From the human T2T-CHM13v2.0 reference genome, Homo sapiens: DNA of 64,000 bases. A program made the translations under genes and the position numbers. The DNA lies in the NCBI RefSeq assembly GCF_009914755.1, contig NC_060931.1; one strand, written 5' to 3'. The notes below the pieces were generated by a model. The model made no database searches. It worked only from the letters and a program-made list of their open reading frames with translations, and was not told the DNA's origin. Every line of letters begins with the position of its first letter. Positions within the stretch are counted from its first letter, which is position 1. Shown piece after piece: positions 45,831-63,984 of this stretch.

Positions 45831-45958
45831 CTAGAATGTCTTCATAGACGTTCTCCTCCGATAAAGTGCGTGTCAGCCCCAGCTTAGTCTGCGCGTACCA
45901 GTCCACCCTGCTGCTCTCAGAGGAAGACTGCAGTAAATCTTCAAACTCATAGGACTTT
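45831..45958 (-). CDS. DENND2A: Exon 4 (128 nt): KSYEFEDLLQ...ENVYEDIL
   Basis: ttccag|AAAG acceptor, TAG|gtaaga donor, phase 2 to 1. Confidence 0.95.
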
Positions 45959-48900
45959 CTGGAATGTGCCAGATGGGAGGAAAAAACAAAGAATTTGAAT
46001 CAAATTAGGCTGTTTCAGAGAATATATTAATATATCCCCTCGGCCAAATTTTCTTTTTCTTAGAAAAATTGTTACCGAAATCAACTTTTATTTTATTTCA
46101 TTTTTTGAGACAAAGTCTTGCTCCGTTGCCCAGGCTGGAGGGCAGCGGCGCCATCTTGGCTCACTGCAACCTGCGCTTCCTGGGTTCAAGCAATTCTTCT
46201 GCCTCAGCCTCCAGAGAAGCTGGGACTATAGGCATGCACCACCATGCCTGGCTAGTTTTTGTATTTTTAGTAGAGACAAAGTTTCACTGTGTTGGCCAGG
46301 CTGGTCTCGAACTCCTGACCTCAGGTGATCTGCCTGTCTTGGCCTCCAAAAGTGCTGGGATTATACACTGTGCCCGGCCTGAAATCAACTTCTGTTATTG
46401 TAAAAGGTGTGAAAATCCATGAATAAGAGATGTGGCTTTTATGTGCAAGAATGTTCATGCTATTATGCTAAGTGAAAATAATAAAGTATATGTAAAAAAA
46501 TAAAATCCCAACTTTGTAAACAAACATAGACGTAGAAAATAGAAAAGGGGGCCGGGAGCAGTGGCTCACTAGTATAGACAGGGACTGTCTATACTATTTT
46601 ACAAATCAGGACACGAAGTTTCAGCCCATTTATGTAGTTCATCCAAGTCTAAAAGGCTTGTGACTAAGGATATGGAACAGTCCTTATTATAGTACAGATA
46701 GTCCCTGACTGTCTTATTACAGTATAGACAGTCCCTGACTGTGTATACTATAGATACACAGCAACACGCCCTGCTAATTTTTGTACCTTTTTGTAGAACG
46801 GGGTTTTGTCATGCTGCCCAGGTTGGTTTCAAACTCCTGACCTCAAGTGATCCTCCTGCCTGGGCCTCCCAAAGTGCTGGGATTACAGGTGGGAGCCACC
46901 GTGCCCAACCCAAAATTACTATTCTTATCCACTTTTTTTGGCACTTTTTTTTTTTTTTTTTGAGACCTGGAGTGCAGTGGCATGATCTTGGATCACTGCA
47001 ACCTCTGCCTCCTGGGTTCAAGCGATTCTCCTGCCTCAGCCTCCCGAGGAGCTGGGATTACATGCATGTATCACCATGTCTGGCTAATTTTTGTATTTTT
47101 AGTAGAGACAAGGTTTCACCATGTTGGCCAGGCTGGTCTCGAACTCCTGACCCCAGGTGATCTGCCTGCCTCAGCCTCCCAAAGTGCTAACATTACAGGC
47201 GTGAGCCACTGTGCCCGGCCTCTTATACACATTTTATTTATCAGAAGACAGAGGCATAGAGGGGTTAGATAAATTGCTCCAGGTATATTGGGAAAAGGTG
47301 GTGGAATTAGGGTCTGACCGCAGGAAGTCTGGTTGGAGACTGATGCTTTTAATGACACAGGGCATTATGGAGAGCATTTATTTAAGTGAGGCATGTCAGG
47401 AGGGAAGCTGCATTCACAGGCTCCAAACTAAAACAGGCTGAATTTCAACAGTTTGCTGTTGGGAACCTGAACTAATTTTCCATACAAAACTGCATTACAC
47501 AGTGATAATTACATTGCTGCATTACACAGTACTGTGCGATACCCAGGCAGACCCTCTGTTTCCCTCAAGTAGTAAGTAATCTATGCTATGAGGAGATGCT
47601 ATGAACCCTTACAGGGAAAAGGGGGACAGGAAGGGGTCATTTCACTGGAAGCCAGGCAGTTTCTCCCACTCTCAGGGCCAGGGTAGTAACCACCACCTAC
47701 AGGTAAAGCCTTGACTGCCTAGAATTACAGCACGACCCTGGCTGAGTTTGGCCTTTTCTTTGAGAGAGAGAAAGGGGCTGTAGCTGTGCCTTGCTTTGCC
47801 ATGGCGAGAGCTCTATTTATTTTTAGAAACAGGTTCTCCCTCTGTTGCCCAGGCTGGAGTGCAGTGGTGCCACCACAGCTCACCGCACCTCAAATTCCTG
47901 GGCTCAGGCAATCCTTGTCCTTCAGCCTCCGGAGTAGCTGAGACTGCAGTTGCATGCCACCATGGCTGGCTAAGTTTTAATTTTTTGTAGAAATGGAGGT
48001 CTTGCTTTGCTGCCCAGGCTGGTCTCAAACTTCTGGGCTCAAGCGATCCTCCTGTCTCAGCCTCCCTGTTGTCTGGGATTATAGTTCTGTTTTTATTTTT
48101 TAAAATCTCATTGGAAACAATATTTGTATAGGTCAAATTTCGAAATGATAAAGTACCTATGAAATAACATCTGAATCTTTAAAATGTTTTCATAATAACT
48201 GCCCTAACAACAGAAGATATTTGTATGGTTAAAGGCTCTCCAAATCTCAGCGGATGACTCGCTTATTTAAAGCACATGTAATGCAGGCCGGGCGCGGTGG
48301 CTCATGTCTGTAATTCCAGCACTTTGGGAGGCCGAGGCGGGCGGATCACTTGAGGTTGGGGGTTCGTGACCAGCCTGGCCAACATGGTGAAACCTTGTCT
48401 CTACTGAAAATACAAAAATTAGCTGGGCATGGTGGTGTGCACCTGTAATCTCAGCTACTCGGGAGGCTGAGGCAGGAGAATCGCTTGAACCGGGGAGGTG
48501 GAAGTTGCAGTGAGCTGAGATTGCGCCACTGCACTCTAGCCTGGGCGACAGAGACTCTGTCTCAAAAAATACATACATACATAAAAATAGAGCACATGTA
48601 ATGCAAGCGGGAATCCAGATTATGTGTTGGGGTTTGTTGGGATAGGATTAGCTTTTATCCCAGTGGTTACTGTCAGACACCTGGGATTTCAAGACATAGT
48701 TTGAATGTTTTGTATAATCCTTCTATATTTCCAAGAACAAGATGCTAATATAAGAGCTCAGGCCAGACACAGTGGCTCATGCCTGTAATCCCAGCACTTT
48801 GGGAGGCTGAGGCAGGAGGATTGCTTGAGGCCAGGAGTTCAAGGCCAGCCTGGGCAACAAAGTAAGATCCCATCTCTACAAAAACTAACAATTACAAAAA

Positions 48901-49814
48901 TTAGCTGGGCATGGTGGCATGTGCCTGAAGTTCCAACTACTTGGAAGGCTGAAGTGGGAGGATCCCTTGAGCCTAGGAGGCACAGGTTGCAGTGAGCTGA
49001 GATCATGCCACTTGCACTCCAGCCTGGGTGAGAGAGTGAGATCTTGTTTCTGGGGAATAATAATAATAATAAAAAAAAGGTCAGCCATGCTTTACATTTG
49101 ATTTCTGACACATAAAAGGTCACTAGTCTAAACAGCATTAGAAAAGTCCAATTTGAAAACAATTAAAAACTCCCTTTAAAAAAATGAAGATGGGGGTGGG
49201 CGCAGTAGCTCACACCTATAATCCTAGCACTTTGGGAGGCCGAAGCAGGTGGACTGCTTGAGCTCAGGAGTTTCAGACCAGCTGGGCAACAGAGCAAGAC
49301 CCTGTCTCTATAAAAGATACAAAAATTAACTGGGTGTGGTGGGGCACACCTATAGCCCCAGTTACTTGGGAGGCTGAGGTGGGAGGATCCCTTGAGCCAG
49401 GGAGTCGGAGGATGCAGTGAGCCAAGATCAAGCCACTGCATTCCAGCCACTGCACTCTCACTCATTTTGAGACAGAGTGAGACCCTGTTTCAAAATAAAA
49501 GATGGTTATTCACGTTGCAAAACTAATTTGCAAAACGATTCATCAAAAGGTTTCTCAAATAGCAGCTCTATTTCCTGTATTAAAGGGTTAGTTTTCAGGT
49601 GACTAATTCCTATGCAGGAAGTCTGAAAGGCAAACAAATTAACATGAGGTACAGTCCATACAAGATCAAGGAGAAGCCAGAAATCTTTACATGCCCAGTT
49701 TCTAGAACTAGTAGGAAAGTAGGATTCCAATTATAACATTTGATCTATCATTGTCATGTGTTGGTAACACATGCCAAAGCATTTAGAAAGTTAGCTCTTC
49801 CTAGCAGTTCTTTA

Positions 49815-62078: not shown

Positions 62079-63882
62079 AGAACATATATGTAATGATACA
62101 TGCTTCCAAATGTAATTTTAGATTAGATAATGCCATGAAGATATTAGAAATTATTTTGAAGGAAAAACATTTTTAAATTAGTCTAACAAGAATGAGAGTA
62201 TCTGTGTTGTCCAATGCAAACATTATTCCACCAGCAAAGGTTATGACTGAGTACAGTGACTTTGGATGTGCCGACATTAGCTAACACCTCACGGTGCCCA
62301 TTTTCTGAATGTATAGATCTGACCGCATGGAAATTCTGAAACTCCAGTTAAGGTTCACCGTGAGGGATGAATAAGTAGCAATTTCATGCATCCTGTTACT
62401 ATTTAGCTTTCTATTCCCAAGGTTGTTTGTGTAAAGACCTCTTCCTCAGTGGAGACATTAGCACATAAATTACGCCACTGTTCTTGGTTGCATGGCATAA
62501 AATAGAAACTTGCGAAAACGCAAACACATTTTTTTGGCAAACACATTTTCCTATTTTAAATATGGCTATCAAGGCAGAATTCCTTATTTAAATAAACAAT
62601 TAGGATTCCTAACAGTGTGTTTACAAAGAGAAAATATTTTTAAATTGTTCCATCACCACTGGAGATATTAGCATGAATTAAGATTTTAGTCAGAATCAGT
62701 TTGTTATCTCACTGAGGGTTCAAAAGGCAGAAGTGATGGTCCTTGCTCTCACAGTGCTAGAGGCAAGATGAAGAGAGAGGACAGACACACACATTAAAAA
62801 CACAACAATCCAGGTTAGTGTCTGCATGGTGATGACTGATGGTCTACAACGTGGTTATTAATGTCCTATATGCTGTGAGGCACTATGGCCTAGGAGCTAA
62901 ATACATGGGCTTTGGAAATGAGGGACTTGAGACTTGAATCCTGAGTTTTTCATCTTCCTTCTGTAGACTGAAACTCTATGAGTCAGAGGCCACATTTATA
63001 TTGTTTACTGTGCCTGGTGCATAGCAGCTAGTCAACAAATATTTATTCAATGAATGAATGAATTCATGAGTTAACATGTAATGTGCTCAAAGTACAGCAT
63101 ACTTTCTAAATCTTGGTATCAACAAATGGTAACTAGTGTTATTGTAAGTATCATAGTTATTGTCTAAGAGCCCAAACACATGGAGTGACTTCACAACTAT
63201 GGAAGCTCTGTCGGAAAACTTGAGAGGAACAAAGGATGGCTTGCTGAAAACTCACACTGGATTTACAAAACTCACGCAACAGAGGCAAGGATGCCGCAAC
63301 TGTCCTACGAGTCCCCAAGGACAGAGTTCCTGCTCCATGTGGTTGCCAGCCCAAGAGTTTCTAGAGTTCCTGTTTCCAGGATTCTCCCGCCCCATAAGGG
63401 GTTCCAGACTGGGGTGCAGAGCTAAGAACCCCTCAGTGGCTGCCAACTGCTTTGTGGAATGTGAGAGGATCAGAGAAAGGGCTCCATCTGGGGAGAAGGA
63501 AACAATCACGCTGGTATTAGATGGGAAAACTGACTGTGTACAGGTACAGCTGCAAAGACTTAGGGCTCAAACATAAGTAAAATACCTGAACATCCTAGTA
63601 GTTAGAAAAATAAACCCAGAATTGGAATGCGTCATGGGGATAGGGCTAAAGTTACCAAGGGATCATCCTCTCCTCACACTGGCCATTAGTCAGACTCTCT
63701 CGATCAGTTTGGCCTGAAGCCTTAAATGAATGCAGTGCATGGAGGCGGTCTGCAGGAGGCTCATTAGAATGACCTGGAAAAGAGCTCCTTAGCTCAAGGA
63801 AGTAGGATCAGTGAAGAAGGAGGTGGTAGGAGAGTAAGAAGCTGGGTCAGCGTCTACACTCTCGGGGGAGAAGTGTTCTTAC

Positions 63883-63984
63883 TTGTCAGCCAATTTGTAG
63901 CTCAGGTTTTCAGTCTGGCTGTGGCTGCCCTTGGCCGGCCTGCACACTGTCATCATGTCAGTACCGAGGGGAGTTCCAGGTCAC
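63883..63984 (-). other. DENND2A: Exon 2 (102 nt), 5'UTR relative to the main ATG; contains tandem upstream ATGs at 63956 and 63953
   Basis: Acceptor ccctgtccccccag|GTGACC, donor GACAA|gtaaga; size fits recalled c.-247..-146 exon. Confidence 0.8.

What the first reader, a model, noticed from the sequence alone, without database searches (positions are those of the whole stretch)
45831..63984. Hidden coding role for 5'UTR exon 2: skipping exon 3 fuses its ATG in frame to exon 4
Seen: exon 2 has gacATGATGa (63956 and 63953; purine at -3 for both) and stays open for 74 nt to its donor, ending in phase 2. Exon 3 is 1140 nt and also ends in phase 2. Joining exon 2 to exon 4 gives MMTVCRPAKGSHSQTENLSYKLADK-KSYEFEDLLQ..., about 702 aa if full length is 1009 aa. 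Recalled, to verify: paralog ST5/DENND2B has a short first coding exon (MTMTANK...), a large skippable exon and then KSFEFED, and skipping gives p82. Inference: DENND2A keeps the same architecture, so one ATG acts as a repressive uORF on inclusion and as the true start on skipping.
Basis: partly seen in the sequence, partly recalled or inferred. Interest (0 to 1): 0.85.

Follow-up and report, generated by a model that had tools for sequence, protein, structure and literature searches.

The report
Ancestral DENND2A start codon, now upstream
The ATG in the "untranslated" exon 2 of human DENND2A is the gene's old mammalian start codon, cut off from the main protein by a single stop codon in exon 3, so its in-frame fit to exon 4 is inherited rather than a sign of a proven hidden isoform.

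Summary
The arithmetic is correct. Exon 2 has ATGs at 63956 and 63953. Their frame stays open for 74 nt to the donor. Exon 3 is 1140 nt (3n). Joining exon 2 to exon 4 gives an open 702-codon frame.

This alone is not beyond chance: 21% of shuffled versions of exon 2 do the same. The meaning comes from orthologues. In 42 of 89 listed DENND2A protein clusters that carry the exon-3 region, the protein starts with the exon-2 peptide and reads on through exon 3. The human conceptual translation aligns colinearly with them and has one stop, TAG at 60668-60666, codon 43.

Exon 2 is therefore the ancestral first coding exon. In human it now opens a 42-codon uORF in frame with the annotated ATG at 60575.

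The paralogue DENND2B has the same layout. At least 8 of 120 listed DENND2B clusters join its first coding exon directly to KSFEFED. For DENND2A, none of 398 held proteins joins exon 2 to exon 4.

Exon 3 is a published circRNA (PMC11657290), so a skipped mRNA is plausible but not shown.

Verdict: real feature, reinterpreted; the isoform claim is open.

The parts
63883..63984 (-). DENND2A exon 2, annotated as 5'UTR; in fact the ancestral first coding exon
   Evidence: Boundaries and splice sites were read. Its frame-1 translation matches the N-terminus of annotated orthologues.
63951..63956 (-). Tandem ATG ATG (63956 and 63953), the conserved mammalian start codon(s)
   Evidence: One search gives the contexts. 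In one search the second ATG column is M in 19 of 21 orthologues (V in Peromyscus and Mus). The first is M in 15 of 21.
63981..63983 (-). In-frame TGA nine codons upstream of the first ATG; it closes the frame towards exon 1 in human
   Evidence: Frame-1 translation. tblastn shows R or other residues here in the Lynx, Manis and Mus models, which extend further upstream.
63883..63956 (-). First 74 nt of the relic ORF (24 codons plus 2 nt), peptide MMTVCRPAKGSHSQTENLSYKLAD(K)
   Evidence: Identical 25/25 to Lynx. Mean identity to 20 orthologues is 0.78, against 0.70 for the annotated exon 3 coding part.
59581..60720 (-). Exon 3, 1140 nt (3n). It holds the annotated start codon and is the unit of circDENND2A (hsa_circ_0002142).
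   Evidence: One search gives the length. Passages of PMC11657290 state that the circRNA originates from exon 3 (1140 bp) by back-splicing.
60576..60720 (-). Exon 3 leader: 48 codons of former coding sequence in frame with both the exon 2 ATG and the annotated ATG
   Evidence: It aligns colinearly to orthologue residues 26-73 with mean identity 0.61. It contains no ATG.
60666..60668 (-). TAG, the single in-frame stop (codon 43) that ends the ancestral ORF and makes a 42-codon uORF
   Evidence: it is the only in-frame stop in exon 3. Orthologues have R (9), K (5), G (3), Q (1) or V (1) at this column and one has a gap. Plecturocebus has Q by eye.
60573..60575 (-). Annotated DENND2A start codon (context A at -3, G at +4); a derived Met
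   Evidence: One search gives the context. In one search this column is V in 14 of 20 aligned orthologues, L in 2, A in 1, and M only in Trachypithecus and Ictidomys among those 20; Plecturocebus also reads ESRMDVF by eye but was a gap in that alignment.
45831..45958 (-). Exon 4 (KSYEFEDLLQ...), the in-frame acceptor for either exon 3 or exon 2
   Evidence: Mean identity to orthologues is 0.96.
60864..61484 (.). Repeat arms in intron 2, complementary to repeats in intron 3 (for example 61187-61336 with 53036-53185, and 60864-60991 with 46788-46915)
   Evidence: seven of the 25 listed inverted pairs span exon 3, at 79-84% complementarity over 128-150 nt. That they are Alu elements is my guess from size and masking, not a tool result.
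55129..55209 (-). Human counterpart of the alternative 5' coding exon of the Fukomys exon-3-less model; disabled in human
   Evidence: tblastn: 67% identity over 27 residues, with a stop. One search shows aaag|ataagg where a GT donor would be needed.

Best explanation
Exon 2 of human DENND2A is the gene's ancestral first coding exon, and its ATG (63956/63953) is the conserved mammalian start codon of the full-length protein. In many mammals the ORF runs from that ATG through all of exon 3.

In human a single TAG in exon 3 (60668-60666, codon 43) breaks this reading. The annotated protein therefore begins 31 codons further on, at a derived Met (60575), and exon 2 is labelled 5'UTR.

The in-frame fit of the exon 2 ATG to exon 4 is inherited. 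The ATG was always in the gene's frame, and exon 3 is a multiple of three.

The same three-part layout is shared with the paralogue DENND2B/ST5: a short first coding exon, a large 3n exon, then the KS[YF]EFED exon. In DENND2B, skipping the large exon gives annotated short isoforms.

Shown: on the main human mRNA the old ATG opens a 42-codon uORF.
Inferred: that uORF should hinder scanning ribosomes from reaching the annotated ATG.
Shown as reading frame only: on any mRNA lacking exon 3, the old ATG would start a 702-residue protein that keeps the whole DENN module.
Not shown: that such an mRNA exists in useful amounts. The only indirect support is that exon 3 is excised as a known circular RNA.
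For: 1. Orthologue N-termini. Of the 120 proteins listed, 89 carry the exon-3-encoded region. Of these, 42 contain the exon 2 peptide at a local score of 60 or more. Three marsupial models fall under that threshold but are visibly homologous (MTAS[KR]TAETRSN...). Examples that start M(M)TVCRPAKGSHSQTENLSYKLADKVKVEGP... include Lynx, Pteropus, Balaenoptera, Sus, Equus, Microcebus, Trachypithecus, Choloepus and Dasypus.

2. The human conceptual translation of exon 2 plus the exon 3 leader aligns colinearly with them and has one stop. Trachypithecus differs from human at 3 of 25 residues in exon 2 and at 3 of 47 in the leader, and has K where human has TAG.

3. Region-wise identity to human over 20 orthologues is 0.78 for the exon 2 peptide, 0.61 for the leader in exon 3, 0.70 for the annotated exon 3 CDS and 0.96 for exon 4. 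The 'UTR' parts therefore evolve like the neighbouring coding sequence.

4. Paralogue. The first coding exon of DENND2B (MTMTANK...TLSR, or MTANK...DR) aligns with DENND2A exon 2 and ends at the equivalent K/R junction. Eight of the 120 listed DENND2B clusters, or nine counting a teleost judged by eye, join it directly to KSFEFED.

5. Exon 3 is 1140 nt and TAG is its only in-frame stop.

6. Exon-3-less models keep uDENN, DENN and dDENN: the precomputed Pfam entries for P0008 and P0077 list PF03456, PF02141 and PF03455.

7. circDENND2A is exon 3 (PMC11657290, passages), and inverted repeats flank the exon. The exon-skipping (lariat) model links such circles to a skipped linear mRNA (PMC11766002, passages).
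Against: - Ascertainment. I only see annotated protein models. A species whose leader carries a stop would simply be annotated from a downstream Met, so 42 of 89 is not an unbiased frequency. Many models are automatic longest-ORF predictions with no proof that translation starts there.
- Of the 89, 47 lack the exon 2 peptide. That includes 19 anthropoid primate clusters that start at MDMF (or MFSL in one fragment) and several rodent and ruminant models that start at other internal Mets. The curated-looking 1000-aa Mus form also starts downstream (P0037), although Mus isoform X5 is open upstream (P0040).
- No orthologue DNA was available. Synonymous versus non-synonymous constraint, the age of the TAG, and whether other catarrhines share it could not be tested.
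- The uORF's effect on translation and the existence of the exon 2-to-exon 4 mRNA are inference.
- Absence of an exon 2-to-exon 4 model in every species examined (0 of 398 held proteins) argues that this junction is at best minor. In DENND2B the equivalent junction is readily annotated.
Confidence: 0.85

Rival explanations
1. The exon 2 ATG is kept in human because it has two jobs. It is a repressive uORF start when exon 3 is included. It is the true start of a functional 702-residue, p82-like DENND2A isoform when exon 3 is skipped, possibly in step with circularisation of exon 3.
For: - The frame is intact and open to the end of the window.
- The human exon 2 peptide is unchanged from the eutherian consensus, 25/25 with Lynx.
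- The homologous junction is used in DENND2B in a marmot, birds and a lungfish.
- ST5 is reported to have p126, p82 and p70 isoforms from alternatively spliced transcripts (PMC6883977, passages).
- Exon 3 is a published circRNA flanked by inverted repeats.
- Exon-3-less DENND2A models exist in Pongo and Fukomys.
Against: - No junction, initiation or peptide evidence could be examined.
- None of 398 held proteins and none of the 39 hits joins exon 2 to KSYEFED, although that search did pick up an exon-2-only match (P0134).
- The Pongo and Fukomys short models use other 5' exons.
- Exon 3 has a strong polypyrimidine tract and a good donor, so nothing in the sequence marks it as weakly defined.
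- Conservation of the peptide in the slowly evolving human lineage is expected even without selection. This is my rough estimate, not a computed one.
- The frame match itself is explained by descent.
Confidence: 0.2
2. The exon 2 ORF is now simply a regulatory uORF. After the TAG arose, the old start was kept, or merely not yet lost, and its only present effect is to lower or condition translation of the 1009-residue protein. No skipped-exon product matters.
For: - There are two ATGs with a purine at -3. The uORF has 42 codons, with 90 nt between its stop and an annotated ATG in a strong context.
- There are no other ATGs in exon 2 or in the exon 3 leader.
- No exon 2-to-exon 4 model exists in any species.
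Against: - No translation data were available.
- Exon 1 lies outside the window, so other upstream ATGs, and transcripts that omit exon 2, are unknown.
- Zero papers in the searchable library hold both 'DENND2A' and 'uORF', so there is no published support either way.
Confidence: 0.3
3. Coincidence. An ATG in a 102-nt UTR exon happens to be open and in phase, with no biological history behind it.
For: 21% of shuffles of exon 2 give an in-phase open ATG.
Against: The encoded peptide is the annotated N-terminus of DENND2A in dozens of mammals. It also aligns with the first coding exon of DENND2B.
Confidence: 0.02
4. Human still makes the long ancestral protein. Either the TAG is read through at a useful rate, or the TAG is a variant of this assembly rather than the usual human allele.
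For: The frame is otherwise intact on both sides of the single stop.
Against: - The RefSeq coding start on this assembly is 60575 (hub table).
- Ape and Old World monkey models of 1009 aa start at the same Met (P0019, P0023, P0024).
- The stop is followed by TCC. To my recollection that is not a known read-through context; this was not tested.
Confidence: 0.04

Closest known systems
DENND2B / ST5 short isoform (p82-type), made by skipping the large N-terminal exon
   Same: - Homologous layout: a first coding exon of 25-27 residues ending in K/R, a large in-frame exon that encodes the proline-rich N-terminal region, then the KS[YF]EFED exon.
- Skipping leaves the same ATG in frame.
- The product is about 700 residues and keeps the DENN module.
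   Different: - In DENND2B the junction is present in annotated models from several vertebrate classes (8 of 120 listed clusters), and short protein isoforms are reported (PMC6883977, passages).
- In DENND2A no such model was found in any species.
- In human, the same ATG cannot serve the full-length protein because of the TAG.
- I could not confirm from any call which ST5 transcript corresponds to p82.
Upstream ORF born from former coding sequence (start-codon shift after a nonsense change near the N-terminus)
   Same: The conserved ATG, a single in-frame stop and a downstream in-frame Met taken as the new start fit this general kind.
   Different: Here the old first coding exon is separated from the rest by a 3n exon that is also a circRNA unit. 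The old ATG therefore regains a full-length frame if that exon is left out. I recall no named family for this; the description is mine.
Single-exon circRNAs that contain the host gene's start codon ('mRNA trap' idea), and the exon-skipping (lariat) model of circRNA formation
   Same: - Exon 3 carries the annotated ATG and is a published circle (PMC11657290).
- It is flanked by complementary repeats.
- The lariat model predicts a linear partner lacking the exon (PMC11766002, passages).
   Different: - In the usual 'trap' picture (recalled, from no call here) the leftover linear RNA is non-coding. Here it would keep an intact ORF from an older ATG.
- Circles can also form by direct back-splicing without a stable skipped mRNA, so the circle does not prove the linear product.

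Membership tests
Ancestral N-terminal coding exon of the DENND2 family | The ATG and downstream peptide are present as the annotated N-terminus in orthologues | tested here: met
   42 of 89 listed exon-3-bearing DENND2A clusters, plus 3 marsupials under the threshold.
Ancestral N-terminal coding exon of the DENND2 family | The human 'UTR' translation is colinear with orthologue protein, with no frameshift | tested here: met
   Alignment: one stop (codon 43) and no frame change over 73 codons.
Ancestral N-terminal coding exon of the DENND2 family | Coding-type constraint (synonymous excess) at the DNA level | not testable with these tools
   No orthologue DNA was reachable. Only protein identity by region is available.
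Ancestral N-terminal coding exon of the DENND2 family | Homology to the first coding exon of a paralogue | tested here: met
   DENND2A and DENND2B N-termini align from the first Met to the K/R exon end. The similarity is short and weak outside the MTA[SN]K start, so this is suggestive rather than statistical.
Upstream ORF (uORF) | An ATG upstream of the annotated start, with an in-frame stop before it | tested here: met
   63956 to TAG at 60668-60666 across the exon 2/3 junction; 42 codons.
Upstream ORF (uORF) | It is translated and affects the main ORF | not testable with these tools
   No Ribo-seq or reporter data. Zero papers hold both DENND2A and uORF.
ST5 p82-type exon-skip isoform | A short first coding exon, a large 3n exon and an in-frame junction to the KS[YF]EFED exon | tested here: met
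ST5 p82-type exon-skip isoform | The skip junction is seen in transcripts or gene models | tested here: not met
   For DENND2A, 0 of 398 held proteins and 0 of 39 hits. Human transcript reads could not be examined, so this tests annotation only.
ST5 p82-type exon-skip isoform | The short protein is detected | not testable with these tools
   No proteomic data.
circRNA-coupled exon skipping | The exon is circularised | tested here: met
   From the literature only: PMC11657290 passages give chr7:140301202-140302342, exon 3, 1140 bp, with the back-splice junction confirmed by Sanger sequencing.
circRNA-coupled exon skipping | Complementary repeats lie in both flanking introns | tested here: met
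   seven listed pairs span exon 3.
circRNA-coupled exon skipping | A linear partner mRNA lacks the exon | not testable with these tools
   No read data.

The most novel reading that the evidence does not exclude
In human and its close relatives, the ancestral DENND2A start codon survives because excision of exon 3 turns the gene into a two-output switch. The excision is the same event that yields circDENND2A, which is reported to be hypoxia-induced. mRNA that keeps exon 3 makes the 1009-residue protein from the internal Met, under restraint by the 42-codon uORF. mRNA that loses exon 3 makes a 702-residue, GEF-only, p82-like protein from the old ATG. One ATG would thus be a brake in one mRNA and the start in the other, and circRNA output would be tied to a change of protein isoform.
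Probability: 0.12. Interest if true: 0.7.

Novelty: new member of a known kind. Interest (0 to 1): 0.42.

Why it matters
Three practical consequences follow.

1. The human DENND2A "5'UTR" from 63956 to 60576 is former coding sequence. Variants there, especially any change of the TAG at 60668-60666 or of the two ATGs, should not be read as ordinary UTR variants. A stop-loss would restore a 73-residue N-terminal extension. Loss of the ATGs would remove a uORF.

2. Human DENND2A is N-terminally shorter than the protein annotated in many other mammals. This matters when mouse, pig or carnivore data are carried over, and when constructs are designed.

3. The finding gives a sharp, cheap test of whether a published circRNA has a protein-coding linear partner. 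The skipped mRNA would not be a dead by-product. It would carry an intact ORF from a conserved ATG, as the paralogue ST5 does.

If the junction is absent, the case is still a clean example of a uORF born from coding sequence.

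Tried and rejected
I used the 42-residue exon 4 peptide and residues 1-75 of the Trachypithecus orthologue instead.
- a paper look-up failed on a two-letter term. It was repeated correctly, which gave nothing on the exon of origin.
- tblastn of the Pongo 'isoform 6' N-terminus against the window. Only exon 4 matched, so its 5' exons lie outside the window and could not be placed.
- the Fukomys alternative 5' exon maps to 55129-55209, but in human it has a stop and no GT donor. 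I rejected it as a human first exon.
- Literature. Of the papers holding 'DENND2A' (161), I read passages of five: with PMC8356645 and PMC6883977 covering ST5. None describes the N-terminal extension, a uORF or an exon 3-skipped mRNA. The long-read preprint 10.1101/2024.08.10.607237 names Dennd2a among genes with isoform changes but gives no exon detail in the passages seen.
- The search 'DENND2A' + 'uORF' found 0 papers. The broader six-term search listed no paper that holds DENND2A. Supplementary tables of Ribo-seq ORF catalogues were not searched and may hold this uORF.
- The ST5 papers read (passages only) confirm three isoforms from alternatively spliced transcripts. They give no exon structure, so the layout was taken from protein models instead.
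- I considered dating the TAG from annotation alone. Anthropoid clusters start at MDMF except Trachypithecus (K at the stop column) and Plecturocebus (Q). I rejected this as unreliable without DNA.

Full report
**1. The observation**

Read on the minus strand, exon 2 runs 63984..63883. It has acceptor cag|G and donor AA|gtaaga. It holds two ATGs, at 63956 and 63953. The first has G at -3, the second A at -3, and both have A at +4.

The frame from 63956 is open for 74 nt and leaves two bases at the donor. Exon 3 (60720..59581) is 1140 nt, a multiple of three. The annotated ATG at 60575 also leaves two bases at its donor. Exon 4 starts at 45958.

Joining exon 2 to exon 4 reads ...LADK|KSYEFEDLLQ... 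and stays open through every later exon in the window. With KSYEFED at residue 333 of the 1009-residue orthologues, the product is 25 + 677 = 702 residues.

**2. Is it more than chance?**

On its own, no. Of 20000 shuffles of exon 2, 4218 (21%) gave an ATG open to the donor in the needed phase.

Because exon 3 is 3n, the exon 2 ATG is in the same frame as the annotated ATG. With exon 3 included, that frame meets exactly one stop, TAG at 60668-60666. The stop comes after 42 codons and lies 90 nt before the annotated ATG.

**3. What it is**

A search with the 42-residue exon 4 peptide returned 448 proteins, of which 120 were listed. Many mammalian DENND2A models are 1050-1120 residues long, not 1009. 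Their sequences begin M(M)TVCRPAKGSHSQTENLSYKLADKVKVEGP..., which is the exon 2 peptide followed by the translation of the human exon 3 'leader'.

Of the 89 listed proteins that carry the exon 3 region, 42 contain the exon 2 peptide at my score threshold. Three marsupial models fall below the threshold but are plainly homologous.

I translated the human exon 2 plus exon 3 conceptually, with X at the stop, and aligned it with 21 orthologues. It is colinear throughout, with no frameshift and one stop at codon 43.
- At that column the orthologues have R (9), K (5), G (3), Q (1) or V (1), and one has a gap.
- The langur Trachypithecus has K. The titi monkey Plecturocebus has Q, read by eye.
- The annotated human Met is itself derived. 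The column is V in 14 of 20 orthologues and M only in Trachypithecus and Ictidomys among those 20; Plecturocebus also reads ESRMDVF by eye.

Mean identity to human over 20 orthologues, by region:

| Region | Mean identity |
|---|---|
| Exon 2 peptide | 0.78 |
| Leader part of exon 3 | 0.61 |
| Annotated exon 3 coding part | 0.70 |
| Exon 4 | 0.96 |

The human exon 2 peptide is 25/25 identical to that of Lynx. The 'UTR' thus behaves like the rest of this fast-evolving N-terminal region.

I conclude that exon 2 is the ancestral first coding exon. The human 5'UTR from 63956 to 60576 (spliced, 73 codons) is a former N-terminal extension broken by one nonsense codon.

**4. Limits of that conclusion**

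- I saw protein models, not DNA. A species with a stop in its leader is annotated from a downstream Met, so the 42 of 89 is biased.
- Most models are automatic.
- Of the 47 models without the peptide, 19 are anthropoid primate clusters starting at MDMF (or MFSL in one fragment). Several rodent and ruminant models start at other internal Mets.
- A second search with residues 1-75 of the Trachypithecus protein found 39 hits among 57 candidates. Among anthropoids only Trachypithecus (a cluster of two sequences) and Plecturocebus carry the extension.
- Whether apes and macaques share the human TAG, or have other lesions, cannot be settled without genome alignments.

**5. The paralogue**

The papers I could read (passages of PMC6883977 and PMC8356645) say only that p126, p82 and p70 come from alternatively spliced transcripts. 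I therefore took the layout from protein models.

A profile-free search of the representative library with the Trachypithecus protein gave DENND2B representatives. A word-index search with one of them listed 120 of 458 DENND2B proteins.
- Eight of the 120 start with the first coding exon (MTMTANK...TLSR or MTANK...DR, 25-27 residues) and run directly into KSFEFED. A ninth is a teleost judged by eye.
- These come from a marmot, several birds and a lungfish, at 656-716 residues.
- Full-length forms read ...TLSR|SQSVSPPP....

The recollection therefore holds in outline, except that the first coding exon encodes about 27 residues rather than 7. In a joint alignment, DENND2A exon 2 and the DENND2B first coding exon align from the first Met to the K/R at the exon end. 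Marsupial DENND2A (MTASKTAE...) is closest to DENND2B (MTANKNA...). The three-part layout therefore predates the split of the two genes.

**6.

The layout claim is supported, and so is conservation of the ATG and phase. The argument from the frame match to a hidden isoform fails. The match is inherited and would exist whether or not exon 3 is ever skipped. The 'uORF on inclusion' state is a late accident of one lineage, not a design shared with ST5.

Direct evidence for the exon 2-to-exon 4 mRNA is missing, and the indirect evidence is mixed.

For:
- Exon 3 is the unit of circDENND2A (hsa_circ_0002142; chr7:140301202-140302342; 'exon 3 (1140 bp)'; junction confirmed by Sanger sequencing; PMC11657290 passages).
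- The circle is reported as hypoxia-induced in glioma cells (PMC6446274 passages).
- Seven of the 25 listed inverted-repeat pairs bracket exon 3.
- The exon-skipping (lariat) model ties such circles to a skipped linear mRNA (PMC11766002 passages).
- Exon-3-less DENND2A models exist in Pongo (711 aa) and Fukomys (717 aa). They keep all three DENN Pfam domains.

Against:
- Those two models use other 5' exons.
- The search would have shown such a protein, because it did list a mongoose model that matches exon 2 alone (P0134).
- Exon 3 has a strong acceptor tract and a good donor.
- In DENND2B the equivalent junction is easy to find.

**7. Mechanism, with status**

Shown:
- The ATG is conserved.
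- There is a single TAG.
- The main mRNA carries a 42-codon uORF.
- The frame to exon 4 is intact.
- Exon 3 is 3n and circularises.

Inferred:
- Ribosomes starting at 63956/63953 terminate at 60666. They must reinitiate within 90 nt, or others must leak past two ATGs of fair context, to make the 1009-residue protein. The uORF should therefore lower its yield.
- Reinitiation falls off with uORF length. This is recalled general knowledge, not tested here.
- Any exon 3-less mRNA containing exon 2 would be translated from the old ATG into a 702-residue protein. That protein lacks the proline-rich N-terminal region and keeps the DENN module.

**8. Side results**

- The circle's ORF runs from the annotated ATG across the back-splice junction and ends at the same TAG, giving 349 residues.
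- In species without that stop, a 3n exon 3 with no in-frame stop would have no stop at all as a circle. I did not test this.
- The Fukomys alternative exon has a human counterpart at 55129-55209. It is disabled by a stop and by AT in place of the GT donor.
- An in-frame TGA at 63983-63981 closes the human frame towards exon 1, whereas some carnivore, pangolin and mouse models extend further upstream.

**9. Novelty and score**

I found nothing in print on this:
- 161 papers hold 'DENND2A' (30 listed, passages of five read).
- 0 papers hold 'DENND2A' and 'uORF' together.
- Supplements of Ribo-seq catalogues were not searched.

The kind is known: a uORF born from coding sequence, and an ST5-type skip layout. 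I file this as a new member of a known kind. It has a well-defined open question, and junction counts would settle it in an afternoon.

Noticed in passing
window 59581-60720 (-): Read as a circle, exon 3 has an ORF from the annotated ATG across the back-splice junction. It ends at the same TAG (60668-60666) and gives 349 residues with the tail ...ADHRVKVEGPRTEKDPRRHPL. In species that lack this stop, a 3n exon 3 without an in-frame stop would have an endless frame as a circle.
   Followed up: partly
window 55129-55209 (-), intron 3: This is the human counterpart of the alternative 5' coding exon used by the Fukomys damarensis exon-3-less model (P0077). It is 67% identical over 27 residues, but human has an in-frame stop and aaag|ataagg where a GT donor is needed.
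   Followed up: yes
window 60573-60575 (-): The annotated human start Met is a derived residue. The column is V in 14 of 20 aligned orthologues, L in 2 and A in 1. The next Met, two codons on (VDM...), is the widely conserved one.
   Followed up: partly
window 63981-63983 (-): An in-frame TGA at the very start of exon 2 closes the frame towards exon 1 in human. The Lynx, Manis, Suricata and Mus X5 models read through the equivalent position and start further upstream, in sequence that would lie in exon 1, outside the window.
   Followed up: partly
window 60864-61484 with 46086-53185: Several 128-150 nt repeat arms in intron 2 are 79-84% complementary to arms in intron 3, so they bracket the circularising exon 3. 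They look like Alu elements by size, but no tool named the family.
   Followed up: partly
P0008 (Pongo abelii 'DENND2A isoform 6', 711 aa): This orang-utan model lacks the exon 3 region and joins a 48-residue N-terminus to KSYEFEDLLQ. Apart from exon 4, that N-terminus has no match in this window. Its 5' exons must lie beyond 64000, which hints at a human transcript of the same shape that I could not see.
   Followed up: partly
P0128 (Plecturocebus cupreus, 836 aa): This titi monkey model starts with the exon 2 peptide but then runs through repeat-like (Alu-like by eye) inserted segments before and after the exon 3 region. It looks like an annotation artefact. Its exon 3 leader is nevertheless open, with Q at the human stop column.
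   Followed up: no
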